Of a stretch of 62,964 nt of DNA, positions 5,710 through 60,770 are shown in pieces; position 1 is the first letter of the stretch, and every line of letters starts with the position of its first letter. Made by a program: the position numbers and the translations under genes. The notes beneath the pieces were generated by a model. That model was not told the origin of the DNA, searched no databases, and saw only the letters and a list, made by a program, of their open reading frames with translations. Location of the stretch: the NCBI GenBank assembly GCA_015061565.1, contig SUWI01000002.1, forward strand, positions 1 to 62,964, read 5' to 3'. Source of the stretch: Lentisphaerota bacterium. GTDB lineage: Bacteria > Verrucomicrobiota > Lentisphaeria > Victivallales > UBA1829.

Positions 5710-6358
5710 TCAGCCGTGGAAAAAGTTTTTGATATTGAACCAAAACACTGTCTGATAAGTGATTTTTACCGCTTCCTTGCGTTTGAGATTGGCTTCGCGG
5801 CCCTTAGGATCGTTCTTATAGCTGTCATGGGCTTCCCAGTCGGCTTTGAGTTCGTTCCATTCTTTTTCCGGATAAGCAATAACCTGCACCTTGATGAAAT
5901 CGTATGGGACCCCATTAAGCCGGCAAAGTTTCTGCTCGATCACTTTATGACCAAGTCCGGCAAACCGTTCGCCAGCCCGGCGGGAAAAGATCAGTTCCTC
6001 ACGAATCCGCTTGTCGATGAAGGCATATTCCAGCGAAACACCGTCGAACTTCTCTTTGGGATTGATTTCCGGGTCGAATTCCAATACTTCCACGGCATTG
6101 CCGGCATCATAGCCCCAGCCGCCTTTGAAACAGCATTGATCGGCGGTCCGGGGAAAATGCTGACGCAAAATCTTGCGCGGCGCCGGAAAATCATTTGGCA
6201 GGCGGTAAGGCAGATCGACCCGGCTGTTTTGCTTCGCAGCAGTTACTTTGAAATGGTTCCGGGATTCGGAATTTTCATCGGCTCCTGCCACGGAACACAG
6301 CATGACCGGCAGGATCACAAAAATTACTCTCGACAAAAATAATTTCACCTGTAATCTC
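5710..6358 (-). CDS. Secreted hypothetical protein
   Basis: I preferred the GTG start at 6358 because AAGGAGA lies 6 nt upstream; the ORF-track start at 6393 is a TTG. Signal peptide: VKLFLSRVIFVILPVMLCSVAGA. I recognised no family. Confidence 0.65.
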
Positions 6359-6469
6359 CTTGTTTCTGTTATCGGGACAAATCCGTTGGACAATATAACA
6401 GTTTTATTGTAAAATTCAAATAAAAAACGAAAAACTCCTGCAACCCTCCTCCATGAAAGGGGAATCCGA

Positions 6470-6731: not shown

Positions 6732-7238
6732 TTATTCTTTCAGCACGGCGCCGATTGCCAGATAAAACTCTTTGCCGTCCTTCGAAAACCAAGTCCCGAT
6801 GACGGGCCATGAACGGACCACGCCATCGACCTTTTCCTCTGCGACATTCAGGTAGTTTGACAGGGATTTTATTTTCTTCTCTTGCCCGTCGGAGGTCTGT
6901 ACCACCTGTTCCTCCACTTTGGTGAAGGCCGAAACTTTATATCCATTCGCTTTCAGCAGTTCCACCTGGGCTTTGATCCGGCAAACTTTGATCATCTGCG
7001 CCATGGCGGAACCGTTTTTCCCTTTATTCCGCGTTGAGACCACACAAACAATAAGCCTTTTTTTGTCCGGCGTAAGGAATTCCTTGACCCCAGTTGCCTT
7101 CATCGTGTTTTTCCGGGCGGTCATATAGGGATAAAACTCTTCTTCGATGTCCACTTCGGAAAAATCCTTTTCCGCAGCGGCAAGCATGAGCATGCCTCCC
7201 GCCAGCAGTAAAAACGCCATTCCGTGTTTCCGATTCAT
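6732..7238 (-). CDS. Secreted hypothetical protein, LPP20-like fold suspected
   Basis: 168 aa. Signal peptide MAFLLLAGGMLMLAAA. The spacing pattern in AMAQMIKVCRIKAQVELLKANGYKVSAFTKVEE...VDGVV....IGTWFSKDGKEFYLAIGAV resembles LPP20-family lipoproteins; I recognised this from memory only. Its start overlaps the upstream stop (ATGA). Confidence 0.65.
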   Translation of the reverse strand: MNRKHGMAFLLLAGGMLMLAAAEKDFSEVDIEEEFYPYMTARKNTMKATGVKEFLTPDKKRLIVCVVSTRNKGKNGSAMAQMIKVCRIKAQVELLKANGYKVSAFTKVEEQVVQTSDGQEKKIKSLSNYLNVAEEKVDGVVRSWPVIGTWFSKDGKEFYLAIGAVLKE

Positions 7239-8416
7239 CTCTTTGCCTTTTCCTTAATAGTCAGTTCGATGGTTTTGATATCTTTCAGTTGATCCGGCTT
7301 GATCTCGCAGGTGAAACCGTAAACATGAACCGGAGATACATGTCTCGCGATGGAAATAAATTCCGGGGAAATGAACACCATCTTCCCTTGCGATTCCCAG
7401 CATAAGGCCTTTTCCCCGGAAGTTCCCATGATTTGAATTTCTTCCTGCAGGATGATTTCACCGGCGGCGTCTTTCAAGGTAAAAACGGCAAAATAACGAC
7501 GACGGAAAATATTCGTGATTTTCTTCCGGAACGGCCCCTCCCACCGGGGGAAACGATACACAACAAATGACTGAAAACGGGGATTATTGCTTTTGCTGCT
7601 GTTGACGAAAACGTAAGAAGAACGCCTATCGTTTGTATTTGGGGCGTTTTTCCGACTGTAAGTGGAGCCGAATCTTTCTTCCTTGCGGCCGTTTTCCGTT
7701 TCGAATCGGATTTTCAATCCATTGACCCATTCTTTCGCCGGGGCCTGCCACGGACCGGATTTGTCCAGGCAAAGTTTGTTCAAGGCATCCAGCAGATAGG
7801 GCTGGACTTCGCGGACATATTTCTTATGATCGAAAGCAACCAGAATCCCCATGGAAATGTACATTTTTCCGTCTTTCCGGAAAACATTCAGCTTGGCATC
7901 CTTGCCCATGCGTTTCTGCGGATCGACCAGAGTCGGGATCAGGAAATCTTTCGGGTTGAGCATGGAAAAGATTTTCAGCAGCATGGTTTCGGCATTTTCC
8001 TTGCGGAGCTGCTCGGTTTCCAGTTTCGCCCAGATATTCTGGGCATCCTTGACTTCGATTTTGAGGATCCTTGTTTCGGCGAGTTTGCCGCGGAGTTTTT
8101 TCTGTTCGACCTGTGCCCTGATCGTGGTTTCATACAAGCCGTATTTGTTGGGCGCGGGTGCTTTCAGGACTTCGTATTTCGAGACGAACCCGTCGCTGAA
8201 AGTCAGCACCTGTTCTTTCAGGATGGCATCGTTTTTCATCAGCGTTTCACTGTCCACCATGGCGCCGACGGCCTGCTGGACCGCCTGAACCAGTGCGTCT
8301 TTGGTCGCACTGGCGGCATCTTTTCCCATGCCTCGGGCGATCACCTGAAGATTTTCGGCTGCGAAAACGGCGCCGGTCAGCAGAACTGCCAGCAGAACAA
8401 CGATTTGTTTTTTCAT
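7235..8416 (-). CDS. Secreted hypothetical protein with a FlgT-N/LPP20-like N-terminal domain
   Basis: 393 aa. Signal peptide MKKQIVVLLAVLLTGAVFA. The N-terminal domain is IARGMGKDAASATKDALVQAVQQAVGAMVDSETLMKNDAILKEQVLTFSDGFVSKYEVLK...YETTIRAQV. It is paralogous to the N-terminus of 8619..9362. Confidence 0.7.
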   Translation of the reverse strand: MKKQIVVLLAVLLTGAVFAAENLQVIARGMGKDAASATKDALVQAVQQAVGAMVDSETLMKNDAILKEQVLTFSDGFVSKYEVLKAPAPNKYGLYETTIRAQVEQKKLRGKLAETRILKIEVKDAQNIWAKLETEQLRKENAETMLLKIFSMLNPKDFLIPTLVDPQKRMGKDAKLNVFRKDGKMYISMGILVAFDHKKYVREVQPYLLDALNKLCLDKSGPWQAPAKEWVNGLKIRFETENGRKEERFGSTYSRKNAPNTNDRRSSYVFVNSSKSNNPRFQSFVVYRFPRWEGPFRKKITNIFRRRYFAVFTLKDAAGEIILQEEIQIMGTSGEKALCWESQGKMVFISPEFISIARHVSPVHVYGFTCEIKPDQLKDIKTIELTIKEKAKR

Positions 8417-8618: not shown

Positions 8619-9362
8619 TCATCGATGAGTCCGGCCCGTGGCGATCATGGAATTCAGCAGCAGATTGTACAGATCCGGGTTCGTGCGGAGGGTCCCGCTG
8701 ACGGAGAAAGTGACTTCCGTTTCCGTGGCGCCAGTCACCTGGATTTTGTTGGGAATGAACTCATAGACCAGCCGAAAAGCCTCCCGGTATTCTTCGAAGA
8801 TTTTCCGGCAGATTTTTGCTGCGGCTCTGTCGATCGCGGCCTTGCGCTTTGCCCGTAAATGCTGATTGATCTGAGCAGTGATTTCGTTGCCGATCTGGAT
8901 GTTGAGTTTCTCCCGGTCCTTTTCCGTCATGGTATCGGCTGGCAGAATATTGGCGAGAACGGCGGACACATCCTGATTGCTGACATCGGCTTCAATTTTG
9001 ACCGTGTAAGTTTCACGTTGTTTGGATTCGGACAAGACCTTGTAATTATCCACATACCCGTAGGCAAATTCAATAAGGTTCTCGCGGATGATCGCGTCAT
9101 TCCGGATCATCGTGGAAGATTCGATATAGGTGCCGATGCCCTGCCGGACCGCTTCTTTGAACGCATCCTGCAGAGCGGCCTCGCGGGTCGTTCCGTTTCC
9201 GGAAACAGTAACCGGGGCGGCCGTCAATTCCATTACCGCGCAGCTGAAAAACAGAATACATACCCGGATAAAACATCTCCGGCATAAAGCGTCCTGCAAT
9301 TCGGCATAGAACCGCCGGAGCGCATGGAGCATTGCATGCCCCGGGGATGAAAGACTATTCAT
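8619..9362 (-). CDS. Secreted hypothetical protein with a FlgT-N/LPP20-like N-terminal domain
   Basis: 247 aa. Hydrophobic leader CFIRVCILFFSCAVMELTAAP. The domain VSGNGTTREAALQDAFKEAVRQGIGTYIESSTMIRNDAIIRENLIEFAYGYVDNYKVLSE...YTVKIEADV aligns by eye with the N-terminus of 7235..8416. Confidence 0.65.
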   Translation of the reverse strand: MNSLSSPGHAMLHALRRFYAELQDALCRRCFIRVCILFFSCAVMELTAAPVTVSGNGTTREAALQDAFKEAVRQGIGTYIESSTMIRNDAIIRENLIEFAYGYVDNYKVLSESKQRETYTVKIEADVSNQDVSAVLANILPADTMTEKDREKLNIQIGNEITAQINQHLRAKRKAAIDRAAAKICRKIFEEYREAFRLVYEFIPNKIQVTGATETEVTFSVSGTLRTNPDLYNLLLNSMIATGRTHR

Positions 9363-10526: not shown

Positions 10527-12080
10527 ATGAAAATTTTACATTTGATCGTGGATCATTTCCGCTGCACGGACAGTGCGGACGCCAAGGCTTACGGACAGGA
10601 GAAGATCTTTTCCTTCCGGAATTTCTTCTGGATCCTCTTCGCCTGGATGATCCTCTGGACGGTCTGGCCGTCGCTGTGCATCGGCAACGTCGCGATCGAC
10701 GTGGCGGAAAACATCGCGTGGGGCGACAACTTCCAGTTCGGGTATGACAAGAATCCCTATTTCGGAGCCTGGCTGTCCTGGGCGGCCTTCCGGATCTGCC
10801 CGTCGGAATATGTTTTTTACTGGATGAGCCAGATCGCGGCGACGCTGGGACTGGCGGCGGTGTATCTGCTGACCGCCGAAGTGACGGGGAGCCGTTTTGC
10901 GGGCTTTGCCGCCGGCCTGTCGGCCTTGCTGATCCCGTTTTTTTCGCATTCGGCCTGTGAATTCAACGACGACGTGATCTGCATTGCGCTGTGGGGCTGG
11001 AGCGCACTCTGTTTCTACCGGGCAGTCAAAAAAGATTCCCTGAAATCGTGGATCGGAGCGGGAGTGTTTGCCGGACTGGCGCTCATGACCAAGTATCTGG
11101 CGGGAGCACTGCTGCTGCCGCTGGGACTGCTGCTGTTCTTCACTGCCGAGGGACGGAAGTGCTGGAAACGGCCGGGGATGTATCTGGCGGGAGCGGTGTT
11201 TCTGGTGCTGGTGGTGCCGAATGTGATCTGGCTCTGCAAAAACAATTTCATCGCGCTCTCCTACGCCATGGACCGGGCGCGGCTGGATGAACCGACCACC
11301 GGTCTGGGCACCCGGCTGAAGTTCATGCTGGATACTGCCGGACAGTTCCTATCGCGGCTGATCCTGCCGCTGGCGTCGCTGCTCGTTTTCCGGCGCAGTG
11401 CCGAAAAAACGCCGGATACCTTCGGCAGGAAACTGATCGTCATCGCCGCACTGGCGCCGTTTGTCCTGTCGCTGCTGTTCATTCTCGTGACCGGAGGTAA
11501 AGTGCTGACGCCCTGGCTCACGCCGTATTTCGTGTTTTCGACCCCGCTGCTGGTGCTGTGGTACCGTCCGCTGCCGGAACGGCGCACGTTCCGGTGTTTT
11601 GCGGCAGTGATCATCGTCGCCGCCGCGCTGTTCGTCGTGTTTTTCGGCTACGAATATCTCCATAAACGTCCGTATCTCAGAAGAGGCGTCACCTACAATG
11701 TCTGGCCGGGTCGGACGGTCGCGGAACAGATGACGAAACAATGGCGTGAGCGTTACGGCAGGCCGCTGCCCTATGTGATCGGAGACCGGACGGTGACCTG
11801 CAATGTGACGTTTTATTCACCGGACCATCCGACCGCATTCTTCGACCACCTGACCGAGCTGAGTCCGTGGATCGATCCGGCCGATGTGCAGCGGCGCGGC
11901 GCGGTGATCCTGTGGACCGGCAACGATCCGCCGCGTTACCTGAAGGATTACGGACCAAGGATCGTGATGCTGCCGGACATCGTTGCGGAACGGGCCGCCG
12001 TGGGGTGGTACCGCAAGCTGGCAGGACCGCTGCGCACCGTAACGGTCCATGCGGCATTTCTGCCGCCGCAAACCAAATGA
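10527..12080 (+). CDS. Integral-membrane glycosyltransferase, family 39 (ArnT/PMT-like)
   Basis: 517 aa with many hydrophobic helices. The first-loop motif IDVAENIAWGDNFQFGYDKNPYFGAWL and the overall architecture resemble ArnT/PMT_2-type lipid-linked sugar transferases. Confidence 0.8.
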   Translation: MKILHLIVDHFRCTDSADAKAYGQEKIFSFRNFFWILFAWMILWTVWPSLCIGNVAIDVAENIAWGDNFQFGYDKNPYFGAWLSWAAFRICPSEYVFYWMSQIAATLGLAAVYLLTAEVTGSRFAGFAAGLSALLIPFFSHSACEFNDDVICIALWGWSALCFYRAVKKDSLKSWIGAGVFAGLALMTKYLAGALLLPLGLLLFFTAEGRKCWKRPGMYLAGAVFLVLVVPNVIWLCKNNFIALSYAMDRARLDEPTTGLGTRLKFMLDTAGQFLSRLILPLASLLVFRRSAEKTPDTFGRKLIVIAALAPFVLSLLFILVTGGKVLTPWLTPYFVFSTPLLVLWYRPLPERRTFRCFAAVIIVAAALFVVFFGYEYLHKRPYLRRGVTYNVWPGRTVAEQMTKQWRERYGRPLPYVIGDRTVTCNVTFYSPDHPTAFFDHLTELSPWIDPADVQRRGAVILWTGNDPPRYLKDYGPRIVMLPDIVAERAAVGWYRKLAGPLRTVTVHAAFLPPQTK

Positions 12081-17989: not shown

Positions 17990-18002
17990 GAGGAGTTGAA
18001 AA

Positions 18003-46386: not shown

Positions 46387-46513
46387 GCTGTTCTCCTGTT
46401 TCATATTGTCATTATCGGTATTGTTCGTCGATGGGGGAAACCGTTCCGGTACGGCGGAAGCCTGTTCCCAAACGGATCCGGTTTTCTTTTTCATGAAACG
46501 TTCTTAACGGAAA

Positions 46514-47326
46514 TCAGAGAGTCCGGTTTCTGACATTGGTCCGATCCCAGAAATTATTGCCATCTCCAATATTCATGCGGCCGGAAAGATTGCCGAGCAC
46601 GTCGTAGCAACCGAACGGATATCTGGCTTTGATGGGACGGGCCGAACCGTCGCACCAGCCGATGTTGCAGACATCCTTATGTGAGGCATGTGCGACGACA
46701 TCGGAAATGCGGGTGTAGGGATAGCAGCTGGAATGGCCAAGCGTCGGATCCGTATAATTATAAGAATCCAGCATGAATATGGTCGCCGACGGTTTGCCGA
46801 TCTCCCGGTCCCGGGCAGGCAGATTATTCCAGTTGCTAAACGCCGGAGAACCAGCCGTTTTACTGATCCAGAAACTGCCGGTGATCTTGAAATGATTGGT
46901 CCCGTAAGTGTTGACATAAGTCTTCGGCATATCGCCGACGACCCAGATCCGCTTGGTAGGGCAAGAGTATGACTTCAGGTTTTTCATGTTGTAGGTGGAC
47001 CAGAAATGATACGCCCAGGTGACATCACCCAGAGAATTCGGAACGAAATAACCGTTGTTGTCCGACTGGTACATCCCGTTCGTCAATCCCAGCTGTCTAA
47101 TGTTGGACATGCAGGAGGTGGACTGTGCCTTGACCTTGGCAGCGTTCAGCGCCGGCAGCAGCATTCCCGCCAGGATCGCGATGATCGCAATCACCACCAG
47201 GAGCTCTATCAGGGTAAAATGCCTTGGCATTTTACCCTTCAAATATGAAATATGATCCTCCTCCACTCTTCGAGCTATGGAGGACAAGGAGATGAAATAT
47301 GAGTTGCCGACTGTGTTCTTGTTCAT
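46514..47326 (-). CDS. Prepilin-like DUF1559 / H-X9-DG family protein (cassette D)
   Basis: 270 aa. Long leader [36 protein letters not shown], then [31 protein letters not shown]9-DG motif: [13 protein letters not shown]. Confidence 0.85.
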
Positions 47327-47380: not shown

Positions 47381-47409
47381 AATATAACAGCATCAAGTGG
47401 TTTTGTCAA
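47381..47409 (-). promoter_or_regulatory. Near-consensus sigma70 promoter of the cassette-D operon
   Basis: The minus strand reads TTGACA-N17-TATATT, immediately downstream of the jetD stop. Confidence 0.5.
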
Positions 47410-47427: not shown

Positions 47428-48609
47428 TCAGCCGGAAGCAGGCGGAGCGGACGTAAAATTTTCCTGTTCCAGCCAGAGGCCGCTGCGGAGCAGCCATTCG
47501 ATCTCCCGGCGGAACGGGAAATCCGGCTTTTCAAGCAATTTTTCCGCTCTGCGCCGTTTATTTTCGGGAAGCGGTTGACAAAATGATTTATGCGCTTCCA
47601 AATCTTCCGAAGTGCATCGATACAGGGAGAGCGGATGGATCCGGTGCAGGACAGCTGCAATTTCATAGCCTTCCGGATCGGAATCGCCCCAGTGTCTGAG
47701 GACAGTATTCGGGGATAGGCATGCAATCAGTTTACGGACGGCCTTTCCGGGAAAACCGGCCGTGTAAACGAGGGTGAAATCCGGATTCTGCTTCATGGTG
47801 CGGTTGAATACGGATTCATTTTCAATAGTCAGAACCGGGAACTCGGACTCCAAGCGGTCAATATCTTTGAGATTGTCCCAGGAAAGCATGGCGCTTTGCC
47901 TCATCCCGAAAAGAGTTTTGATCCAATCCAGGTCCTGACCGCGGGAATGGTAAATCACGGGTCCGAAAACGGCGGCTGTGGATGCCGTGGGATTGGATGT
48001 CATGCCATAATGTTCCAGCAACAGACCATCGGGCAGCTGCGAACCGGTCAATTGGCGGAGCAAGCGGCAGCTCCAGGAAAGGAGCTGAGTGTTTTTCAGC
48101 CGTTTTGAATCCCGGAACAGACCGGCGCTGATCTCCGCCGGAGCGGCAGGTTCGGGTGCGTCCATCAGATATTGCGCGGTTTTCCACGCATCAAGGAGCA
48201 GCGAATAATCGGGAGCATCGCGCCGGGAAAGTTCCGGACGGAATTCCTGCCAGTCGATCCCGGGAACGGCAAAACGGAGGCGATGATACAATTCTTCGCC
48301 GGGATGACCGGTTTCCGGAGGCGTGAATCCAGAGGTCTCGCGCAGGATGTCCAGCCACAGATCGAATGCGCCGCCCAGGGTCAGCCGGAGTTTCGTCAGA
48401 TCCAGCACCGGCCTGCCGTTCCGCCGGATGACGCAGTTGAGGAAGAAATTGGCCAAGGTTTCCGGAGGCCCCTGGGGGAGTGACAGGGTTTTGGCTTCGG
48501 GATTGCGCAGCAGACACCTGAGGAGGGAGTGAGAGGCAGACTTCAGGACCGGCGATTGGGCAAGCAGTTTGAGCTGCCCCGCCCGGAATGTTTCTTCCTG
48601 CGGAGTCAT
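47428..48609 (-). CDS. jetD: Wadjet nuclease subunit JetD (MksG-like, Toprim domain)
   Basis: 393 aa. C-terminal Toprim-like motifs VLTIENESVF and RHWGDSDPEGYEIAAVL. Its start overlaps the jetC stop (ATGA). It is the fourth gene of the A-B-C-D size pattern. Confidence 0.8.
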   Translation of the reverse strand: MTPQEETFRAGQLKLLAQSPVLKSASHSLLRCLLRNPEAKTLSLPQGPPETLANFFLNCVIRRNGRPVLDLTKLRLTLGGAFDLWLDILRETSGFTPPETGHPGEELYHRLRFAVPGIDWQEFRPELSRRDAPDYSLLLDAWKTAQYLMDAPEPAAPAEISAGLFRDSKRLKNTQLLSWSCRLLRQLTGSQLPDGLLLEHYGMTSNPTASTAAVFGPVIYHSRGQDLDWIKTLFGMRQSAMLSWDNLKDIDRLESEFPVLTIENESVFNRTMKQNPDFTLVYTAGFPGKAVRKLIACLSPNTVLRHWGDSDPEGYEIAAVLHRIHPLSLYRCTSEDLEAHKSFCQPLPENKRRRAEKLLEKPDFPFRREIEWLLRSGLWLEQENFTSAPPASG

Positions 48610-51600
48610 TCAAGTTCAGCTCCCTGCTTCAGGTTTTCAGGATCGGAAAGGAGCTCGGGATCGCGCGTCCAGTTATACCAGATCAGGTGGACTTGATAAT
48701 TTTTGTCTTTGCGGACAAAAATATTGGTCGAGCTGGCCAGTTCGACTTTCATGCCGTCCTGATTGGGGGAAGCGATCATAAGCTGGAGTCCGAGTTCTTC
48801 GGCGAAAGCCAGCAGCTGATTCTGCCGGAGCGGGTCGATGCCGTAAAAAGCCTCATCGAAGAGGATCGTGTTGATTTTGATCCGGGAACTGGTTCCCTCG
48901 GTTTTATCGAAGAGGAGATGAGCGATCATCATTACCAGCAGATAATTAGGCACGGCCTGTTCGCCGCCGGAACCGACGCTTTTGGTGCGGGTGTCCATGA
49001 CCTTGTCGGCGGACCCGGCGGAATGGAGCATCATATTGTACTGAAAATAATTCCGGTAGTCCAGCACGGGCGGGAGCACGCCGGCGGGAGTGTCCAGGAT
49101 CTCATTCGCATGGAGCATGAAAATTTCCTTGAGCTCTTCACTGCTTTCGGGGATCTGATCGGAAAAACTGCGGATGACGCGCACCAGCGCGGCATATTCG
49201 GGCAGCGGGGTCACGTTCAGACTGTAGGTGCTGCGTCCGAAGGTGTGGCCGGAAAGCGTGCGGTTGATCTGATTTTCCATGTTTTCAAGCGCAAAAATGC
49301 GCTGCCGCAGGGAATTCCGGAACTGCTCCAGAAGAATCCGCTCAAAGTTGCGGCGGGTATCGGCGTTGAGAATTTCCTTCTGCTGCTGGACCGCGGTTTG
49401 AAGCCGTTCATACAATTCGCCGATGGTCCGGTGCTCACGGCTGAAAAGTTCGTTGCCATCTTCATGATAGGAAAACCCGTATTCGATGCCTTCCGCATTC
49501 ATGATTTTGGAGGTGACGGATCCAATGAGCTTGTCGTGTTCTTTTTTCAGGACGGCGCGGGCATTGGAACAGGCATCGGTATCGGCGATTCGCTGTTCGG
49601 CGAGATATTTTTGCAGACTTTCCTCGGTGCGGCAGCCGTTTTCCGGGGTCAGGGATCCATGGTATTTCCGGGAAATCTCTTCAAAAGCGGTTTCCCGGGA
49701 CCGCAGCTGTTCCTGAAGGTCGCCGTAACGCGCCTCCGCCGAGACCACAGCATCATGGTCATGCAGGAAAATCTTCCTGATATTCTCCAGTTCGGTGCTG
49801 ATTTTGCGGATTTCCGCATCGAGATTTTCCAGATTTTTTTCTTTGATCTGGGCACGGAGATAGTTCAGGTTCCGGCGGGCGTCTTCAAGTTCCTGACGGC
49901 GCATTTCCATGGCAGCAGAATTATCCTCGATTGCTTTGTTGACCGCGGCCAATTGGGCCGTGTTTTCGGCTGCGGCCGCAGTTTTCCGCCGGATCTGTTC
50001 AAAAAGATGGATGATCCGGTCATTGAATCGGGTGAACGATTTGAGCCGTTTTTCAGCGCCGGCGAACTGGGCGGCAGCCTGTTTGCAGATTTCCTCTTTG
50101 GATACCAGGACTTCCCTGGCGTCGGCGATCCTGCGTTTCTGTTCTGCCTGGCGTTCCTCTTCGCCAATCAGTTTGGCCGGAATGCCGCAGAGGACGCGAT
50201 AGGTCCCATGCCACGTCACACTTCCCGGGTCCGTGAGGTTTTCAAATTCGGGGATGGTATATCCGTCCAGTTCTCTGGCCAGGACTTCAAGCCAGGCAGC
50301 ATCGTGTTCGGAATCGAAAAATTGATCGAGGAATTCGCGGATCCTGCCGGAGGGTTCAGGGATCTTTTCAGAATAAAGCGCTGCGCACCTGGCGCCTGGA
50401 TAATCGTCGCGTAGAAGCTGTTTGATCCTGCTGATGGATTCTTCTTCGGCGACCAGTGTTGCCAGAATATCCTCGCCGATGAGTTCTTCCACGGCGCTCC
50501 GCATACCGGGGGTAAGGTTTTTCCGCCAATGGAGCCTGGTGTACAAGGGGTCGGCAGGGAGCATTTCCCGGCTCAGATCGGCAAGCAGGTCATTGTAATG
50601 CGGCAGATGTTCCGGCAGGGCTTCCTCCAGCGCTTCCAGTTTTTTCAAATCCGTCTCCGCCGCTTCGAAGTCCTTCCGGGCCGTTTCGGCATGCTCCGAA
50701 GCGGTTTGACGCAGATATTTCAGGCGCTCGCCATATCCGCCGAAGGCATTTTCCAATGACTTCAACGGCTGAAAATCCAGGTTCCGGTCCGGTTCCTTGC
50801 CGACTTGTGCCTGCTGCACCGCCGCCAAGGCCGGATTCAGCGGCAGATCGGACCAATCCGAGAGTTCTTCGGAGAGTTTTCCGGAAAGGGTGCTCAGGAC
50901 ATCCCTCAGTTCCGAACGGTTTTTCTCCAGTTCGGCGGCCAGGAGCTCTTTTTGACTGGAAAAATTCCGGTCCTTTTCACACAGCTGCTCCAGCTGTCCG
51001 CCCAATTGATCCGCCAGTTTTGCCCGGCTTTTTTCGGTTTCGATCAGAGAAGAAGAATCCCGGTCTTTCAAGTCGGCAAGCGCACGCTCCATGGATTGAA
51101 CCCGGATTTCGGACTGATTCCGGATGAGCCTCATACGGTCGATTTCAACGGACATCTCATCGGCTTTGGCGCGAATGCCTTCGAGCAGGAGCCGCTGCTT
51201 GTTCCGTTCAAAATACAGGAGTCCGATCTCCAGAATACGGATTTCCCTGCGGAGTTTGTCAATACTCACTTTGATGCGGTTGAGTTCGCCCAGATATTCG
51301 CAGCGTTTTTCCAGGGAATTGAGGGCGGAATTGGATTCCCGCAGGGCGCGCAGGCTGTTCCGGAGTTCCTGCAGGGTTTCGGCGTCCGGTTCAGGCAGGA
51401 GGCTTTTGAAAAGTTCATGATAATTGCCCGCCCGGCTGGAGATTTCCCGGTAGGCCTTGCACATGTTCAGGAATTTCCGGTATTCATGATATTGTGCCGG
51501 GGTCGGAAAGAATTCCCTGGCCAGCGCCTGCGAAAACGAGGTCATCCCCGTATAATAGCGGCCGTTCATTTTCAAAACCGCTTTTTTGAATTCCTCCCGG

Positions 51601-52073
51601 TCCGGCGGATATTCCTGACCGTTTTCATCTTTGAGCAGCAGCGGCAGAGCGGAAACGGGACAGGAACAGCGGAATCCCCATTGCTGAAGCGGCGCATTCA
51701 CTCCGGCAATGGAAAGACCGATCCCGATACAGACCGGATTGCCGGATTCGTTCTGAAGTTCCAGCGCGGCATAAGTCACCCGTCCATCGGGGAATCGCGG
51801 TCCGGTATCCACATTGTATGCCGTGACCGCGCCGTTGATGCGGCGTCCGTTCGCTTTGCTGCCGCCCAATCGGGCTGCTGAATTCAGTTCCACATCCTCG
51901 CCGGCCGACAGCACATAATGAATGGCGTCCAGGATCGTCGTTTTCCCGGAACCGTTGTCTCCCATCAGAAAAAGATGGCCACCGTTTTTCAGCGGTATCG
52001 TGACCGAGTTGATGTTATGGAAGTTGACTAAGCGGACAGCGAAAACCGAATATATTTCCCGGTCAATCCTCAT
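48606..52073 (-). CDS. jetC: Wadjet SMC-like ATPase JetC (MksB-like)
   Basis: I chose the start at MRIDREIYSV (ATG 52073); the ORF-track ORF extends to 52112. It has Walker A MGDNGSGKTT, a long central region rich in coiled-coil-type heptads, the ABC signature GSGGEQ and Walker B ILFDEAF. Confidence 0.9.
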   Translation of the reverse strand: MRIDREIYSVFAVRLVNFHNINSVTIPLKNGGHLFLMGDNGSGKTTILDAIHYVLSAGEDVELNSAARLGGSKANGRRINGAVTAYNVDTGPRFPDGRVTYAALELQNESGNPVCIGIGLSIAGVNAPLQQWGFRCSCPVSALPLLLKDENGQEYPPDREEFKKAVLKMNGRYYTGMTSFSQALAREFFPTPAQYHEYRKFLNMCKAYREISSRAGNYHELFKSLLPEPDAETLQELRNSLRALRESNSALNSLEKRCEYLGELNRIKVSIDKLRREIRILEIGLLYFERNKQRLLLEGIRAKADEMSVEIDRMRLIRNQSEIRVQSMERALADLKDRDSSSLIETEKSRAKLADQLGGQLEQLCEKDRNFSSQKELLAAELEKNRSELRDVLSTLSGKLSEELSDWSDLPLNPALAAVQQAQVGKEPDRNLDFQPLKSLENAFGGYGERLKYLRQTASEHAETARKDFEAAETDLKKLEALEEALPEHLPHYNDLLADLSREMLPADPLYTRLHWRKNLTPGMRSAVEELIGEDILATLVAEEESISRIKQLLRDDYPGARCAALYSEKIPEPSGRIREFLDQFFDSEHDAAWLEVLARELDGYTIPEFENLTDPGSVTWHGTYRVLCGIPAKLIGEEERQAEQKRRIADAREVLVSKEEICKQAAAQFAGAEKRLKSFTRFNDRIIHLFEQIRRKTAAAAENTAQLAAVNKAIEDNSAAMEMRRQELEDARRNLNYLRAQIKEKNLENLDAEIRKISTELENIRKIFLHDHDAVVSAEARYGDLQEQLRSRETAFEEISRKYHGSLTPENGCRTEESLQKYLAEQRIADTDACSNARAVLKKEHDKLIGSVTSKIMNAEGIEYGFSYHEDGNELFSREHRTIGELYERLQTAVQQQKEILNADTRRNFERILLEQFRNSLRQRIFALENMENQINRTLSGHTFGRSTYSLNVTPLPEYAALVRVIRSFSDQIPESSEELKEIFMLHANEILDTPAGVLPPVLDYRNYFQYNMMLHSAGSADKVMDTRTKSVGSGGEQAVPNYLLVMMIAHLLFDKTEGTSSRIKINTILFDEAFYGIDPLRQNQLLAFAEELGLQLMIASPNQDGMKVELASSTNIFVRKDKNYQVHLIWYNWTRDPELLSDPENLKQGAELE

Positions 52074-52704
52074 GGCGGAGCTCCTCCAGGTTCTTCTCCA
52101 ACGCGCCGGCATTGTATTGGTAACAGGCCGGCAGGGCTTCGTAAATCACTTTGTCCTGTTCGACCCGTTCCCCGGCTTCGCGCGGCAGTTCACGCAGAAA
52201 ACGATAGGTCAGCAGCTTCGGCATCAGCGGACGGAGTATATTTTTCTTGACCGCCTCGGCTTCCAGATCGGTCCGTTCCGGAAACAGTGCCCGCATCCGG
52301 TTTACCGTGTATTCCAGGTATTCTCCGAATAAAAAACGCGGATTTTCCCGGTCGGAAGCGGAAAGCGACTGTTCCGACAGCAGTTTTTCATAAAATTCAA
52401 TCAGCAGCAGGAACGCAATATATTCGTTCCGTCCCTGCAGCTTGAATTCGACGATCCCGGCATGACCGAGCGCGGGATTGAAGATTTTTTTCTTGACCAG
52501 GCGGGCGCATTTGGAATCCAGGCGCAGCTCCCAGCCGAAATTCTTCCGGTAGAACTCCCGGAACGCAGATTCATAATGCTGAAGTTCATAGAAACGTTCC
52601 GGATCATCGGTTTTGTAGAACCACGCCGATTCCAGCAGAATATTGTTGATCGCGATAAATTGATCCGGGTATTTGCCAAGCAGAGTTTCGTAATCAGTTT
52701 CCAT
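52063..52704 (-). CDS. jetB: Wadjet subunit JetB (MksE-like)
   Basis: 213 aa. It overlaps jetC by 11 nt and jetA by 11 nt. The size and position fit JetB. No enzymatic motif is present. Confidence 0.7.
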   Translation of the reverse strand: METDYETLLGKYPDQFIAINNILLESAWFYKTDDPERFYELQHYESAFREFYRKNFGWELRLDSKCARLVKKKIFNPALGHAGIVEFKLQGRNEYIAFLLLIEFYEKLLSEQSLSASDRENPRFLFGEYLEYTVNRMRALFPERTDLEAEAVKKNILRPLMPKLLTYRFLRELPREAGERVEQDKVIYEALPACYQYNAGALEKNLEELRHED

Positions 52705-54169
52705 GCGGACCGGTCTCCTTCAATATAGTTTGCGGACCATCCAGCGTCCCTTCCGGAAACCGGATCAGAGATTTTCCCTCCGGATGGATTTCCAGTTTTT
52801 TTCCGATAGTCATCAGCATCCGGCCTTCGCCGGTGAGTCCGTATTTCAGCAGCATCCCCACTTCGGCGAGTTCGCCGCGTTCAAGCTGACCTTGTTCCAG
52901 CGGACCATTTTCAGGGTAACGCAGCTTCAGGAATTCAGACAGCTGGCGCAAACGCATCTCTTCATGGGTTTCGACCCGCTCTTCCGATAACTTTACAGTC
53001 CGGGAAAAGGTCCGCGGGGGAATTCTCCTTCCGCCGCTGCCGAAACGCGGAGCGGGCGGTTCCGCTTTCTGGAATTCATCGGCGTCGTTCATATCCAGCG
53101 GCGCCGCGGCAGGAGTCAGCAGTTCCCGCAGAAAATCCGGAGCTTCGAACGATTCGGGTTTCCCCGCCAGTTCCAGAAGCCGCAGGTTGATGAATTCAAG
53201 ACGATTGCTCCGCCGTTCCAGCTCTTTCAGAAAACTCGTCAGCTTGCCCAGCACTTTCATGGCATTTTCATGCACGGAAGCGCATAGTTTGTCCACTTGT
53301 CCGCCGCGTCCGTAATATTCCAGGAGATGTTCCGGGAATTTCCGGATCTCAGTTCTCAATCCGCCGGTCCGCATGAACTGCGGCCGCATCCGCTGTTCCG
53401 CCTCAAACAGTTCTTCGCATCTGCGCAGCTGTTCCGGACGGGTCCCCGTGTTCAGCTGTTCGAGTTCCTTCAGGATGCCGGACCGCAGCTTGAAAAGCTG
53501 CTGCAGGTAATGCTTGAAATATGCATCCAGTCCATTGACCGTCTCCCGCGCCTCTTCCGGCGTGTAGCTTTTCAGCAGAAATTCCCCCAGCCGGATGGTG
53601 ATTTGATTCAAATTGCGGCTGAGCCGGGCGGTTTTTTCCTCCACATCCCCCAGTGCGAAAATCACTGCCGAATAACGGCTTTCCGAGTCCCGCAGATTCC
53701 GCCCGATTTGTTTGATGGAACCCAGGATGAATTCCAGCAGATTGACCGAATCGTCCTCCTTCGGCAGCAGGTCCGAGGCATGCCGTTCCTCCAGCCAGTT
53801 CAGGAAAGCGATCGTTTCATCCGTCAGTCGGTAACGGAACATATCACGCCGGACATCCCGATACGAACGGATTCTGGTTTTCTCGATCCGCTTGACCACA
53901 ATGTTCCAGTTTTCCAGCTGCTGCATCACCTGATTGAACCGGGCGGAATCAGGAAGTTCTTTTTCCCCGGAGCGGGGATAACTTTCCAATGCGGTCTGAA
54001 ACAGATCCTCCCGCAGGATTTCCAGCTCGTGCCTGCGGCGGAAATCCAGCAGGGTGCACAGGATATGCAGATAATCCGCGGCAAATTCCGAACTGAACAT
54101 GCTGCCCAGATTCCGATTTCGGAATTCCAGCAGTTTTTCCGCATCCATCGCTGTCTTATCTGTTTCCAT
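52694..54169 (-). CDS. jetA: Wadjet subunit JetA (MksF-like kleisin-type)
   Basis: 491 aa. It is the first gene of the overlapping four-gene set. The size and position fit JetA. No enzymatic motif is present. Confidence 0.7.
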   Translation of the reverse strand: METDKTAMDAEKLLEFRNRNLGSMFSSEFAADYLHILCTLLDFRRRHELEILREDLFQTALESYPRSGEKELPDSARFNQVMQQLENWNIVVKRIEKTRIRSYRDVRRDMFRYRLTDETIAFLNWLEERHASDLLPKEDDSVNLLEFILGSIKQIGRNLRDSESRYSAVIFALGDVEEKTARLSRNLNQITIRLGEFLLKSYTPEEARETVNGLDAYFKHYLQQLFKLRSGILKELEQLNTGTRPEQLRRCEELFEAEQRMRPQFMRTGGLRTEIRKFPEHLLEYYGRGGQVDKLCASVHENAMKVLGKLTSFLKELERRSNRLEFINLRLLELAGKPESFEAPDFLRELLTPAAAPLDMNDADEFQKAEPPAPRFGSGGRRIPPRTFSRTVKLSEERVETHEEMRLRQLSEFLKLRYPENGPLEQGQLERGELAEVGMLLKYGLTGEGRMLMTIGKKLEIHPEGKSLIRFPEGTLDGPQTILKETGPHGN

Positions 54170-54257
54170 AGCCCGACTATCCGATTTGATGTTTATTCAG
54201 GTTTCCAATCTGTCACGGTTCAAGAATATCCGCTGCCACAGCATGTCGGCATGCAGT

Positions 54258-55904
54258 TCATTTCCGTCTTTTGCGGGACAGTCCCTTCTTTCCCCGTTTC
54301 TGGAACATATCGGATAATTTCTTAAACGTTTTCTCAAGGGTCCGGCATTCTTCATAAGTCTTTTTCAATTTGTCGATCTCAGGATCGTCAGGGAAATTTT
54401 CCAGTGCTTTCAAGAAAGATTTTGTCTCGTCAAATTTCCTTTGACGGAGGTAAAAACGACCTTGCGAAAGGAACCATTGCTTCATTGCATCCGGATGGGT
54501 TTTCTCAGGCATCTTAAGTGTTTTAATCAGCTGCATGCCTTCCTCATAATGCTCTTGGCACCCCAGGATATCCAGCAGCATTGCATGGGCGAAAAGATAT
54601 TCCGGATGTTCCTGAACCAGACGCCGGACGATTTTTTCCGGTTCGTCACTTTTCACGCCGCTGTTGTATATTGCGACTGCGAGATTGTATTCCGCCGGGA
54701 AGAAATCCGGACATTTGAACAGCATTTCCCGGTAACGTCCGGCAATCTTTTCCCAATCTGGATTTTCTTCATGCGATGAAAAAACGATTTTTTCATACTC
54801 CTCGGCAAAATCCTCCGGAAGAGGACAAAATTTATGCTCCGGATCGAGTTCAATGGTGAACAGCAGCTGTGACGATTTCCGGCCTTTGTGCTGCATTTCA
54901 ATCACCTCTCCGGATTTGATGTCGCCGCGCTCCAGCAGGATCACACTGGCATATTGACGCAGTTCATCGCTGCCGAAAGAACCAGAAACCAGTTTTTTGA
55001 GAAATGCCGCGGCTTCCGGATGCAGATTGTCTTTCAACACGTCGAGAGCCGGTTTCTTGTCTTTGTGGTTCGGATCATTGAGAACGGATTCGACAAAATC
55101 GATCACCCAGCGATGCTTCAGAACCGGATTGGAAAGAGTTTTGTCATCTTTGAGCAAACGCTCCAAATAAAAATCAGATGAAACCAGCATAGGCCAATCT
55201 CCGCGAAAACTGACGGGCCGCGCTCCTTTCTCCAGCAGTTCCAGATAACGTTCCGCCAATTCAAATTTCGGATCATCAGAGTTGACCCACCTCAGATATT
55301 CAATCGCCAAACCGGTATCTCCGACATTGGCCGCTGCGCAGCCGGCCCAGAATGTCATTTCCGAAGCATCCGCATGGGGATTGGAAAAAGCAAACTCGAA
55401 CAGATCCTGATACAGGTGCAGCCGTGCAAACATTTCGCAAATCTTCAACGCCGCTTCCAAAGAAATATCATCTTGGGAGGCCGCAATATACAGAGCATTG
55501 GCTGCGGCCGCATCTTCATCATTGAAATACAGGAACAATGACAAGTTCGCCAATCCGAATGCCGGAAGAAAACATGACTTCTTCAGAAAATCACGTTGGA
55601 TTTTCAGGGCTTCATCAAGGTTTCCAAGCATGAAACAGCATAATGCCAGATTATTAACCGGATTGGGAATATCGGGATTGAGTTCTATCGATTTTTTGAA
55701 AAGCGGAATTGCCTCTTCGAATTTCCTTTCCCCCATCAGCCTATATCCTTGATAATGGTATTTTTCTGCTTTTTTATACTGGCTTTCACTGATCGACGGG
55801 CCCGTTGCCGACGGTTCGAAAATTCTATGCTGGCAGCAGAAGCGGTATTTCTTCCCGCTACCGCAGTAGCAGGGTGCATAAGGATCTATTTTATTTTTCA
55901 GCAT
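54258..55904 (-). CDS. SEC-C metal-binding motif + TPR-repeat protein
   Basis: I chose the ATG at 55904 (GGAG 5 nt upstream); the ORF-track GTG is at 55910. The SEC-C motif is N-terminal: PCYCGSGKKYRFCC. TPR-like helical repeats follow (AIPLFKKSIELNPDIPNPVNNLALCCFMLGNLDEALK and others), with a basic C-terminal tail. Confidence 0.8.
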   Translation of the reverse strand: MLKNKIDPYAPCYCGSGKKYRFCCQHRIFEPSATGPSISESQYKKAEKYHYQGYRLMGERKFEEAIPLFKKSIELNPDIPNPVNNLALCCFMLGNLDEALKIQRDFLKKSCFLPAFGLANLSLFLYFNDEDAAAANALYIAASQDDISLEAALKICEMFARLHLYQDLFEFAFSNPHADASEMTFWAGCAAANVGDTGLAIEYLRWVNSDDPKFELAERYLELLEKGARPVSFRGDWPMLVSSDFYLERLLKDDKTLSNPVLKHRWVIDFVESVLNDPNHKDKKPALDVLKDNLHPEAAAFLKKLVSGSFGSDELRQYASVILLERGDIKSGEVIEMQHKGRKSSQLLFTIELDPEHKFCPLPEDFAEEYEKIVFSSHEENPDWEKIAGRYREMLFKCPDFFPAEYNLAVAIYNSGVKSDEPEKIVRRLVQEHPEYLFAHAMLLDILGCQEHYEEGMQLIKTLKMPEKTHPDAMKQWFLSQGRFYLRQRKFDETKSFLKALENFPDDPEIDKLKKTYEECRTLEKTFKKLSDMFQKRGKKGLSRKRRK

Positions 55905-55966
55905 AATCACTCCATTTGCCGGAAATTATCAATTCCAAGTGCAGAATACACAATATCTGAAAATGT

Positions 55967-59960: not shown

Positions 59961-59990
59961 GATTGACATTTCCTTATTTTAACTCTGAAA

Positions 59991-60770
<780 letters not shown>

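What the first reader, a model, noticed from the sequence alone, without database searches (positions are those of the whole stretch)
47428..54169. Complete Wadjet (JetABCD / MksFEBG-like) anti-plasmid SMC system on an AT-richer island between two glycan cassettes
Seen in the sequence: four translationally coupled minus-strand genes of 491, 213, about 1155 and 393 aa, with overlaps of 11, 11 and 4 nt.
- The third gene is an SMC/ABC-type ATPase (Walker A GDNGSGKTT, signature GSGGEQ, Walker B ILFDEAF, long coiled-coil-like middle).
- The fourth gene carries Toprim-like motifs (IENE and GDSDPEG).

Established knowledge: this order, these sizes and these motifs are the signature of Wadjet, in which a JetABC condensin-like complex senses small circular DNA and JetD cleaves it.

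By eye the island (with the upstream SEC-C gene) is more AT-rich than its flanks. My hand counts of single 60-nt lines give about 37-45 percent GC in the SEC-C gene against about 67 percent in a line of the 18003 gene. No integrase or transposase flanks the island. I cannot assign the subtype (I, II or III) without HMMs. Wadjet in a PVC/Lentisphaerota background is little explored.
Basis: partly seen in the sequence, partly recalled or inferred. Interest (0 to 1): 0.7.

Follow-up and report, generated by a model that had tools for sequence, protein, structure and literature searches.

The report
Complete but unclassifiable Wadjet anti-plasmid operon

Summary

The Wadjet reading is supported:
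- JetA passes Pfam DUF2397.
- JetB folds as a two-winged-helix KITE. Its best structural matches are the JetB subunits of N. vireti, E. coli and P. aeruginosa, then MukE.
- JetC is an SMC/ABC ATPase with all motifs intact.
- JetD folds like MksG, JetD and topoisomerase VI-A, with an invariant Toprim E...DxD.
- dN/dS against the nearest orthologous cassette is 0.09-0.17.

The subtype cannot be assigned. JetA and JetB lean to type II, JetD to type I, and JetC is equidistant. All type II TIGRFAM scores fall far below cut-off, and no type III model hits JetA, JetB or JetD (E up to 10) or appears among JetC's 25 listed hits. JetB is single-lobe (213 aa), unlike the tandem 370-415 aa KITE of type II.

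The same architecture recurs in at least 126 species-level genomes, mostly Lentisphaerota, Kiritimatiellia and Verrucomicrobiota.

The "AT-rich island" claim fails for Wadjet itself: 54.7% GC against a window mean of 54.8%. Only the adjacent SEC-C/TPR gene is an outlier (46.2%), and it is not conserved with the system.

No integrase, tRNA or flanking repeats were found. Homology to the closest relative stops exactly at the four-gene borders.

Verdict: a known kind of system in an apparently undescribed lineage. Moderate interest.

The parts
52694..54169 (-). jetA: kleisin-like subunit, 491 aa
   Evidence: Pfam DUF2397 scores 55.1 bits against a cut-off of 28.5, over residues 27-324. PADLOC JetA2 gives 1.6e-6. 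TIGR02677 scores 37 bits against a cut-off of 166. hhalign of the family profile to a type II JetA N-terminus gives E 4e-4, but E 0.47 to a type I (DUF5716) JetA. Family alignment A3 has 27 invariant columns. dN/dS against L009 is 0.13.
52063..52704 (-). jetB: single-lobe KITE subunit with two winged-helix domains, 213 aa. Overlaps jetA by 11 nt. RBS GAAGGAG.
   Evidence: Pfam DUF2398 scores 35 bits against a cut-off of 26.9, but covers only profile positions 3-85 of 363. The AF2 model has pLDDT 85.5. Foldseek PDB hits: 9qe0_D N. vireti JetB 1.2e-6, 8as8_C E. coli JetB 1.9e-5, 8dk1_F P. aeruginosa JetB, then MukE. hhalign covers residues 17-200 of a 405-aa type II JetB, which is lobe 1. dN/dS is 0.09.
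48606..52073 (-). jetC: SMC/ABC ATPase, 1155 aa from the ATG at 52073. Overlaps jetB by 11 nt.
   Evidence: Pfam AAA_29 and SbcC_Walker_B both pass. PADLOC JetC1 PDLC00519 gives 1e-49 and JetC2 PDLC00553 gives 3.9e-28. The family profile hits only N. vireti type II JetC in the PDB, at 1.1e-30. In family alignment A4 the GxNGxGKTT core of the Walker A motif and the signature SGGEQ, Walker B FDE, D-loop and H1129 are invariant across 17 sequences. The stretches 247-466 and 620-880 match coiled coils. dN/dS is 0.15.
52081..52087 (-). Shine-Dalgarno-like GGAGGAG, 7 nt upstream of the jetC ATG at 52073
   Evidence: Read directly from the sequence. The upstream ATG at 52112 has no such site.
51936..51962 (-). 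JetC Walker A, GDNGSGKTT
   Evidence: Translation check. The GxNGxGKTT core is invariant in A4.
48852..48971 (-). JetC signature motif SGGEQ (48957-48971) and Walker B ILFDE (48852-48866)
   Evidence: Translation check. Invariant in A4.
47428..48609 (-). jetD: arm-CAP plus Toprim nuclease, 393 aa. ATGA overlap of 4 nt with jetC.
   Evidence: Pfam JetD_C scores 42.2 bits (cut-off 22) and DUF2399 scores 37 bits (cut-off 23.4). PADLOC JetD1 gives 7e-28 and JetD2 gives 1.2e-11. The AF2 model has pLDDT 89.9. Foldseek hits: 8b7f_A C. glutamicum MksG 4.5e-8, 1d3y Topo VI-A 1.2e-7, Spo11, and 7til P. aeruginosa JetD 4e-6. dN/dS is 0.17.
47677..47826 (-). JetD Toprim catalytic motifs: IENE (47815-47826) and the D309/D311 of GDSDPEG (47668-47688)
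   Evidence: E263, N264, E265, H306, W307, G308, D309, D311 and E381-Q382-E383 are invariant in 22 family members. In E. coli JetD the Toprim glutamate E248 is the putative active-site residue, and E248A is the cleavage-dead mutant used for structures (bioRxiv 10.1101/2023.11.03.565488).

Best explanation
Window 47428-54169 (minus strand) encodes an intact, selectively maintained Wadjet-family system, jetA-jetB-jetC-jetD.

**Likely mechanism, inferred from studied type I and II systems.** JetC dimers are bridged by the kleisin JetA and carry JetB KITE dimers, forming a dimeric SMC motor. The motor loads on DNA and extrudes loops using ATP. On a small circular molecule, extrusion runs to completion and stalls. 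The JetD Toprim dimer is then recruited and cuts the DNA. The large chromosome is never fully extruded and is spared.

**What is shown here.**
- The gene set, folds, motifs and purifying selection.
- A recurrent four-gene architecture in many genomes.

**What is inferred.**
- Complex assembly and a JetB homodimer. This follows because JetB is single-lobe, as in type I and MukE, not tandem as in type II.
- Sensing of circular DNA, and cleavage.

**Classification.** The cassette belongs to a distinct lineage centred on the PVC superphylum that fits none of Wadjet types I-III. JetA and JetB are nearest the type II families (DUF2397, DUF2398). JetD is nearest type I. JetC is about equidistant. The KITE and the SMC have type I-like sizes.
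For: **Family hits for all four proteins.**
- PADLOC JetA/B/C/D.
- Pfam DUF2397, DUF2398, AAA_29 plus SbcC_Walker_B, and JetD_C plus DUF2399, all above gathering score.

**Folds.**
- JetB is a KITE. Foldseek top hits are the JetB subunits of N. vireti, E. coli and P. aeruginosa, then MukE.
- JetD matches MksG, Topo VI-A, Spo11 and P. aeruginosa JetD.

**Catalytic motifs** are invariant across the family.

**Translational coupling** is supported by RBSs in front of the internal starts.

**Purifying selection.** dN/dS is 0.09-0.17 against the L009 orthologues.

**Recurrence.** The same A-B-C-D architecture and sizes appear in 38 of 88 fetched loci, and B-C-D-A in 11 more. At least 126 species-representative genomes carry a relative. 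There are at least 509 JetC clusters of 1150-1173 aa.

**Modularity.** Nucleotide homology to the closest relative, L009, spans exactly 47457-54160 and nothing outside it. Contexts differ between relatives, and some are defence-rich.

**Lineage.**
- The type II TIGRFAMs score 37/166, 25/125, 62/463 and 34.5/196 bits against their cut-offs.
- No type III model hits JetA, JetB or JetD at E up to 10, and none is among the 25 listed of JetC's 44 hits. The library does hold at least one type III model, a JetD3.
- Family-profile bit scores against reference type I and type II operons: JetC 99/90 against 113; JetD 93/61 against 39; JetB 26/0.7 against 19; JetA about 10/0.7 against 7.
- Canonical DUF2398 proteins are 371-414 aa and cover the whole Pfam model. 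This clade covers only the first 85 positions.

The mechanism is taken from bioRxiv 10.1101/2022.10.04.510915, 10.1101/2023.11.03.565488 and 10.1101/2025.03.10.642339.
Against: - No functional data exist for this lineage.
- The JetA assignment rests on one Pfam hit and weak profile matches. Its C-terminal winged-helix domain was not tested.
- The JetC hinge and coiled-coil geometry were not modelled.
- Several related loci seem to lack JetD (L015, L018, L023-L026, L052). Part of the clade may therefore have a non-nuclease role.
- No promoter or terminator could be assigned with confidence.
- The window neighbourhood holds glycan-degradation genes, not a defence island.
- The 'distinct lineage' statement uses score comparisons with three reference operons and HMM libraries, not a phylogeny. 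Only one type III model (JetD3) was actually seen in the library. JetC was not scanned at a permissive E-value, and only 25 of its 44 hits were shown. No type III reference sequence was available.
Confidence: 0.85

Rival explanations
1. It is just a divergent member of canonical type I, or of type II. The mixed signals would be noise from fast sequence evolution, and there would be no separate lineage.
For: - PADLOC's best models for JetC and JetD are labelled type I.
- Gene sizes match type I: JetB about 200-240 aa and JetC about 1100-1150 aa.
- Alternatively, Pfam and NCBIfam place JetA, JetB and JetC with the type II families, and the only PDB sequence relative of JetC is type II.
Against: **Against type I.**
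- JetA has no similarity to the type I reference kleisin tested (a DUF5716-family JetA: hhalign E 0.47), and no JetA1 model hits at E up to 10.
- True type I proteins score 1e-100 to 1e-270 on the very models that our JetC and JetD hit at only 1e-49 and 7e-28.

**Against type II.**
- All four TIGRFAM scores are 4-7 times below cut-off.
- The KITE is single-lobe, 213 aa against 371-414 aa.
- The SMC is about 200-240 aa shorter.

**Coherence of the clade.** It is large and has tight length distributions.
Confidence: 0.25
2. It is a housekeeping MksBEF-type condensin used for chromosome organisation, and the fourth gene is incidental or has another role.
For: - MksBEF and Wadjet are homologous, and domestication has been proposed (discussion of 10.1101/2025.03.10.642339).
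- Several loci of this clade appear to carry JetABC without JetD.
- The window locus sits among ordinary metabolic genes.
Against: - jetD is translationally coupled to jetC by an ATGA overlap.
- It is under purifying selection, dN/dS 0.17.
- It keeps an invariant Toprim E...DxD.
- It co-occurs with JetABC in most loci that have room for it.
- The cassette is patchily distributed and sits in unrelated contexts in close relatives. That pattern is typical of accessory defence genes, not of a core condensin.
Confidence: 0.07
3. It is an inactive remnant, a decaying cassette.
For: Nothing specific. There are only weak matches to curated models.
Against: - All four ORFs are full-length.
- Every ATPase and Toprim motif is intact.
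- dN/dS is 0.09-0.17.
- An independent metagenome contig, L089, carries an identical arrangement.
Confidence: 0.03

Closest known systems
Wadjet type II (N. vireti JetABCD, PDB 9QE0/9QE1; TIGR02677-02680; M. smegmatis EptABCD)
   Same: - It has the same four roles in the same order.
- JetA and JetB fall in the same Pfam families, DUF2397 and DUF2398.
- JetC's only sequence relative in the PDB is N. vireti JetC, at 1.1e-30.
- JetB's best structural match is N. vireti JetB.
   Different: - The KITE here is single-lobe: 213 aa with two winged-helix domains. Type II has a tandem four-domain KITE (388 aa in N. vireti, 405 aa in the Alicyclobacillus reference).
- JetC is 1155 aa against 1371-1391 aa.
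- All TIGRFAM scores are far below cut-off.
- JetD scores better against type I than type II, 93/61 against 39 bits.
Wadjet type I (E. coli GF4-3 and P. aeruginosa JetABCD; C. glutamicum MksBEFG; Bacillales plasmid systems L090/L091)
   Same: - Subunit sizes and gene order match, and the KITE is single-lobe.
- The JetD C-terminal region passes Pfam JetD_C, and its best structural hit is MksG.
- JetC is collinear with about 1100-aa JetC1 models.
   Different: - JetA is unrelated at sequence level to the type I kleisin tested (DUF5716 family), and no JetA1 model hits at E up to 10.
- JetB does not reach the DUF4194 threshold. Its only type I hit is a JetB1 model at E 0.007.
- E. coli and P. aeruginosa JetC are not among the top 60 PDB sequence hits of the family profile.
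- No match was found to the N-terminal arm-CAP part of the JetD1 profiles. The hits start near residue 130-160.
MukBEF / MksBEF condensins
   Same: It has the same SMC-kleisin-KITE architecture. MukE is among the top structural matches of JetB.
   Different: This cassette carries a coupled Toprim nuclease gene, is patchily distributed, and has variable genomic context.

Membership tests
Wadjet (JetABCD/MksBEFG/EptABCD) in the broad sense | Four co-oriented, adjacent genes for a kleisin, a KITE, an SMC ATPase and a Toprim nuclease | tested here: met
   ORFs and overlaps. Jet family hits for all four proteins.
Wadjet (broad sense) | JetC is an SMC-like ABC ATPase with Walker A, signature, Walker B and a long coiled-coil middle | tested here: met
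   The motifs are invariant in A4. AAA_29 and SbcC_Walker_B pass their Pfam cut-offs. The middle regions match coiled-coil proteins. The hinge fold was not modelled.
Wadjet (broad sense) | JetB has a KITE fold of tandem winged-helix domains | tested here: met
   AF2 model with pLDDT 85.5 and two helix-helix-helix plus beta-hairpin units. Foldseek hits to JetB and MukE at probability 1.00.
Wadjet (broad sense) | JetA is a kleisin with an N-terminal winged helix and bundle, a KITE-binding middle and a C-terminal winged helix | tested here: inconclusive
   Pfam DUF2397 passes at 55 bits against 28.5, but covers residues 27-324 only. hhalign to the type II JetA N-terminus gives E 4e-4. No structure was predicted, and the C-terminal domain is untested.
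Wadjet (broad sense) | JetD has an arm-CAP plus Toprim fold with the catalytic glutamate and DxD | tested here: met
   AF2 model with pLDDT 89.9. Foldseek hits to MksG, Topo VI-A, Spo11 and JetD. E263/E265 and D309/D311 are invariant.
Wadjet (broad sense) | Restricts small circular DNA in vivo and cleaves it in vitro | not testable with these tools
   This needs transformation assays and biochemistry.
Wadjet type I | JetA belongs to the type I kleisin family (DUF5716, as PADLOC describes its JetA1 models) | tested here: not met
   No Pfam or PADLOC type I JetA hit at E up to 10. hhalign to a DUF5716 JetA gives E 0.47.
Wadjet type I | JetB belongs to the DUF4194/MksE family | tested here: not met
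   The only hit is PADLOC JetB1 PDLC00500 at E 0.007. There is no Pfam DUF4194 hit for the window protein. Some clade members hit both DUF2398 and DUF4194 in the first winged helix.
Wadjet type II | Proteins reach the TIGR02677/02678/02680/02679 cut-offs | tested here: not met
   Scores against cut-offs are 37.3/165.9, 24.8/124.7, 62.3/462.9 and 34.5/196 bits.
Wadjet type II | Tandem KITE (about 370-415 aa, four winged helices) and an enlarged SMC (about 1350-1390 aa) | tested here: not met
   JetB is 213 aa with two winged helices. JetC is 1155 aa. Canonical DUF2398 proteins are 371-414 aa and cover the full model. The type II reference has a 405-aa JetB and a 1391-aa JetC. The feature is described in 10.1101/2025.03.10.642339.
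Wadjet type III | Matches to type III Jet models | tested here: not met
   No JetA3, JetB3 or JetD3 hit at E up to 10, and no JetC3 among the 25 listed of JetC's 44 hits. The library holds at least one type III model, a JetD3 (PDLC00592 hit a Bacillales JetD). No type III reference sequence was compared directly, and JetC was not scanned at a permissive E-value.
MksBEF condensin (nuclease-free) | No MksG/JetD partner | tested here: not met
   jetD is present, coupled to jetC and conserved.

The most novel reading that the evidence does not exclude
The cassette would represent a fourth Wadjet lineage centred on the PVC superphylum, with at least 126 species-level genomes. Its kleisin and KITE would be the unduplicated counterparts of the type II families. 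JetB would then be a living example of the single-lobe KITE from which the type II tandem KITE is proposed to have arisen by duplication and fusion. Its SMC and nuclease would be closer to type I, which implies either a deep intermediate branch or module shuffling between Wadjet types.
Probability: 0.4. Interest if true: 0.5.

Novelty: new variant of a known kind. Interest (0 to 1): 0.4.

Why it matters
- Wadjet is the main SMC-based barrier to plasmids, and it limits genetic tractability. Knowing that Victivallales, Kiritimatiellia and related hard-to-manipulate bacteria carry an intact system is practical information for anyone trying to transform them.
- For SMC biology, a clade that pairs type II-like kleisin and KITE sequences with a single-lobe KITE and a short SMC gives a natural comparison. 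It would help test what the tandem KITE and long coiled coil of type II contribute, and how Wadjet types diversified.
- Sources label these proteins generically ("ATP-binding protein", "DUF2398 family protein"). Type-based defence finders may therefore miss or mis-type the clade.

Tried and rejected
- **PDB sequence searches with the single proteins.** Nothing significant was found, apart from E of about 1 to N. vireti JetA and JetB. The JetA, JetB and JetD family profiles also gave no Jet hits in the PDB.
- **Literature.** No held paper pairs Wadjet with DUF2398, "type IV Wadjet" or "Wadjet subtype". One taxon-based search was too broad to be informative. The Doron 2018 paper was not held, so the original definition of type III could not be read.
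- **Island hypothesis.** I found no tRNA, no flanking direct or inverted repeats above chance length, no integrase or transposase in the neighbours, and no GC deviation of the Wadjet genes. I reject it as a classic integrated element and keep it only as a 'modular four-gene cassette'.
- **SEC-C/TPR gene as a fifth component.** Rejected. It has no homologue beside any of the first 88 fetched loci (L001-L088) and is absent from L009.
- **Plasmid-borne relatives.** Only 13 distant hits in PLSDB, and none from this clade.
- **Promoter and terminator scan.** Nothing convincing for the operon itself.
- **Empty-site search.** A look-up of the exact SEC-C/TPR protein and of V. vadensis JetD on contigs found nothing. 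No relative lacking the insertion was found, so the indel test remains undone.
Full report
**1. Observation**

The region holds four minus-strand ORFs:
- 52694..54169, 491 aa
- 52063..52704, 213 aa
- 48606..52112, 1168 aa as the longest ORF
- 47428..48609, 393 aa

The third gene most likely starts at the second ATG, at 52073. That ATG has GGAGGAG 7 nt upstream, whereas the ATG at 52112 has no ribosome-binding site. An independent JGI metagenome contig with the same arrangement (L089) also calls the gene as 1155 aa.

All quoted motifs are present at the expected places: GDNGSGKTT, GSGGEQ and ILFDEAF in the third protein, and IENE and GDSDPEG in the fourth.

**2. Identity of the four proteins**

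PADLOC models hit all four:
- JetA: JetA2, 1.6e-6
- JetB: JetB2, 7e-11
- JetC: JetC1, 1e-49, and JetC2, 3.9e-28
- JetD: JetD1, 7e-28, and JetD2, 1.2e-11

Pfam gathering scores are passed by DUF2397 (JetA), DUF2398 (JetB), AAA_29 and SbcC_Walker_B (JetC), and JetD_C and DUF2399 (JetD).

Structure predictions built on family alignments were confident.
- *JetB* (pLDDT 85.5) consists of two winged-helix units. Its best PDB matches are N. vireti JetB (1.2e-6), E. coli JetB, P. aeruginosa JetB and MukE.
- *JetD* (pLDDT 89.9) matches the C. glutamicum MksG nuclease (4.5e-8), topoisomerase VI-A, Spo11 and P. aeruginosa JetD.

Across 22 JetD relatives, E263-N264-E265, H306-W307-G308-D309-x-D311 and E381-Q382-E383 are invariant. 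In E. coli JetD the Toprim glutamate E248 is the putative active-site residue, and E248A is the cleavage-dead mutant used for structures (10.1101/2023.11.03.565488). Across 17 JetC relatives, the GxNGxGKTT core of the Walker A motif and the signature, Walker B, D-loop and H-loop residues are invariant.

**3. Is it functional?**

Against the closest orthologous cassette (L009, a Victivallales MAG, 77.6% nucleotide identity), dN/dS is 0.13 for JetA, 0.09 for JetB, 0.15 for JetC and 0.17 for JetD. dS is near 1, so these values are approximate. They still indicate purifying selection on all four genes.

**4. Which Wadjet type?**

Here the evidence departs from a simple filing.

*Against type II.* NCBIfam's type II equivalogs are all hit, but 4-7 times below cut-off: 37/166, 25/125, 62/463 and 34.5/196 bits. 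JetB matches only the first 85 or so positions of the 363-position DUF2398 model. Different PADLOC JetB2 models align it either to their first lobe (positions 11-95 of 388) or to their second lobe (220-307 of 420).

The literature explains this pattern. Type II JetB is a tandem KITE of four winged helices (388 aa in N. vireti), thought to have arisen by duplication and fusion, and type II SMCs are also enlarged (10.1101/2025.03.10.642339). The window JetB is a single lobe. hhalign aligns the family end to end with residues 17-200 of a 405-aa type II JetB.

*Exhaustive search.* A profile search of 1.84 billion representative proteins found only 105 hits. The full-length ones are 198-298 aa. Canonical 371-414 aa DUF2398 proteins appear only at E 4e-6 to 9e-4, and those proteins cover the whole Pfam model.

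*Controlled comparison.* I fetched two Bacillales type I operons (L090, L091) and one type II operon (L092) from plasmids and scored them with this family's profiles.

| Subunit | Type I references (bits) | Type II reference (bits) | Note |
|---|---|---|---|
| JetC | 99 / 90 | 113 | |
| JetD | 93 / 61 | 39 | |
| JetB | 26 / 0.7 | 19 | first winged helix only |
| JetA | about 10 / 0.7 | about 7 | not significant for either type |

By hhalign, JetA aligns to the type II JetA N-terminus (E 4e-4) and not to the type I JetA (E 0.47). True type I proteins score 1e-100 to 1e-270 on the same PADLOC models that the window's JetC and JetD hit weakly.

In the PDB, the JetC family profile finds only N. 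vireti type II JetC (1.1e-30). E. coli and P. aeruginosa JetC and MukB are not in the top 60.

*Type III.* The PADLOC library holds at least one type III model (a JetD3 model hit the Bacillales JetD). No type III model hits the window's JetA, JetB or JetD at E up to 10, and none is among the 25 listed of JetC's 44 hits.

*Conclusion on type.* JetA and JetB lean to type II, JetD leans to type I, and JetC is equidistant. Subunit sizes are type I-like. Every type-defining test fails. I therefore file it as Wadjet in the broad sense, of an unassigned lineage.

**5. How widespread is the lineage?**

- The JetD search returned 23 clusters, mostly Victivallaceae.
- The JetB search returned 24 clusters, all 207-275 aa. 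One is a 100% identical protein labelled as from a Lentisphaeria MAG.
- A scan of one genome per GTDB species with the JetB alignment found 126 loci, of which 80 were kept. They come from Victivallales and other Lentisphaerota, Kiritimatiellia (including Pontiella sulfatireligans), Verrucomicrobiota, some Fibrobacterota, a Desulfobulbus MAG, an Armatimonadota MAG, and unclassified rumen MAGs.
- HMM annotation of the first 88 fetched loci (L001-L088) gave A-B-C-D in 38, B-C-D-A in 11, and truncated sets where contigs end. JetB is 194-303 aa in all but one locus (the longest ORF in L067 is 375 aa), and complete JetC calls are mostly about 1150-1200 aa.
- The JetC profile retrieved at least 509 clusters at 90% identity, with the listed hits 1149-1173 aa and only generic names.
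- None of the lineage is on a PLSDB plasmid.

**6. Island claim**

- The Wadjet genes are 54.7% GC against a window mean of 54.8%, the 44th percentile of equally sized windows. Their GC3 (62-64%) is lower than that of the two flanking GH123-like genes (75-76%) but equals that of rpsD (65%).
- The SEC-C/TPR gene at 54258..55910 is the true outlier: 46.2% GC, in the lowest 0.3% of windows. It does carry an N-terminal SEC-C motif, PCYCGSGKKYRFCC. No homologue sits next to any of the first 88 fetched loci (L001-L088), apart from the near-identical contig L089.
- There is no tRNA, no meaningful flanking repeat, and no integrase or transposase in the neighbours. Those neighbours are paralogous prepilin-like plus GH123_N/Laminin_G_3 gene pairs on both sides.
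- The cassette does behave as a module. blastn homology to L009 covers 47457-54160 and nothing else. In relatives the cassette sits next to unrelated genes, and some of those are defence-like: an AAA_21 ATPase in L009, TOTE and PDDEXK genes in L062, and a HicAB-like pair inside L004.
- I could not find an empty site, so an insertion is not demonstrated.

**7. Mechanism**

*Shown here:*
- an intact kleisin-KITE-SMC-Toprim gene set with conserved catalytic residues
- translational coupling of the four genes
- purifying selection on all four genes

*Inferred from type I and II studies:*
- JetABC forms a dimeric loop-extruding motor.
- Near-complete extrusion of a small circular DNA creates a stalled, bent DNA segment.
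- That segment recruits the JetD dimer, whose Toprim sites cleave it.

Because JetB is single-lobe, a KITE homodimer per motor unit is expected, as in type I and MukBEF.

The main rival to the function is a housekeeping condensin. It is disfavoured by the conserved, coupled nuclease and by the accessory-gene distribution, although JetD-less loci in the clade deserve a look.

**8. Novelty and score**

Wadjet is well known, and the architecture here is canonical. What appears new is the lineage. It is unassignable to types I-III, it has a type II-like but unduplicated KITE, and it is concentrated in PVC bacteria. I found no paper in the held library that describes it, but that library is incomplete and I ran no formal phylogeny.

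- Interest: 0.4
- Novelty: new variant of a known kind, at subtype level only

Noticed in passing
window 54258-55910 (-): A 550-aa protein with an N-terminal SEC-C metal-binding motif (PCYCGSGKKYRFCC) and TPR repeats. It is the strongest compositional outlier of the window (46.2% GC, GC3 50%). It lies directly upstream of jetA on the same strand but is not found beside related Wadjet cassettes.
   Followed up: partly
L015, L018, L023-L026, L052 (downstream of JetC): Related JetA-JetB-JetC loci have more than 3 kb of sequence after JetC (over 5 kb in all but L026) but no detectable JetD. In L015 and L024 the next genes are a GH63-like hydrolase and an HGD-D/BcrAD protein. These may be nuclease-less (MksBEF-like) derivatives, or JetD may be encoded elsewhere.
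   Followed up: partly
L041, L046-L051, L072, L073, L080, L081; L056, L059, L068, L079: In rumen and gut Kiritimatiellae MAGs the gene order is permuted to JetB-JetC-JetD-JetA, or appears as JetD-JetA-JetB with JetC not found downstream.
   Followed up: no
L004 4125-4542: In a Thermodesulfobacteriota MAG, a 68-aa ORF and a HicA-toxin gene (a possible HicAB-type toxin-antitoxin pair) sit between jetB and jetC of the same lineage.
   Followed up: no
L062 11621-16575; L009 1993-3780: Other conflict genes sit next to relatives of the cassette. In L062 a YhcG PDDEXK nuclease and TOTE-system proteins follow JetA-JetB, and JetC is missing. In L009 an AAA_21/AAA_15 ATPase plus a 152-aa ORF lie directly upstream of Wadjet.
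   Followed up: partly
window 38235-42512 (+), 43621-47326 (-), 56070-60770 (-), probably 17228-21842 (+): A two-gene cassette recurs: a prepilin-like protein (N-terminal methylation motif, DUF1559) followed by a giant Laminin_G_3 protein. That protein carries GH123_N in the two copies flanking Wadjet and MG2 in the 39024-42512 copy; the 18003-21842 gene was not scanned.
   Followed up: partly
window about 4000-11000: A second low-GC stretch (47.5-52%) holds ORFs without Pfam hits: 7235..8416, 6732..7238 and 5710..6393, all on the minus strand. Nearby are a FlgT_N-like protein (8619..9362) and a PMT_2 glycosyltransferase (10527..12080).
   Followed up: no
window 47381-47409 (-): A near-consensus sigma-70-type promoter (TTGACA, 17 nt, TG-TATATT; 11 of 12 matches) lies immediately after the jetD stop codon, in front of the prepilin-like gene at 46514..47326.
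   Followed up: no
window 48588-50414 (+), 50805-51881 (+), 53297-54325 (+): Long antisense ORFs (608, 358 and 342 aa) lie opposite jetC and jetA. They are most likely by-products of codon composition, not genes. They were not scanned separately against any family library.
   Followed up: no
window 12142-13428 (+): A 428-aa protein with an FHA domain fused to a Ser/Thr protein kinase domain.
   Followed up: no
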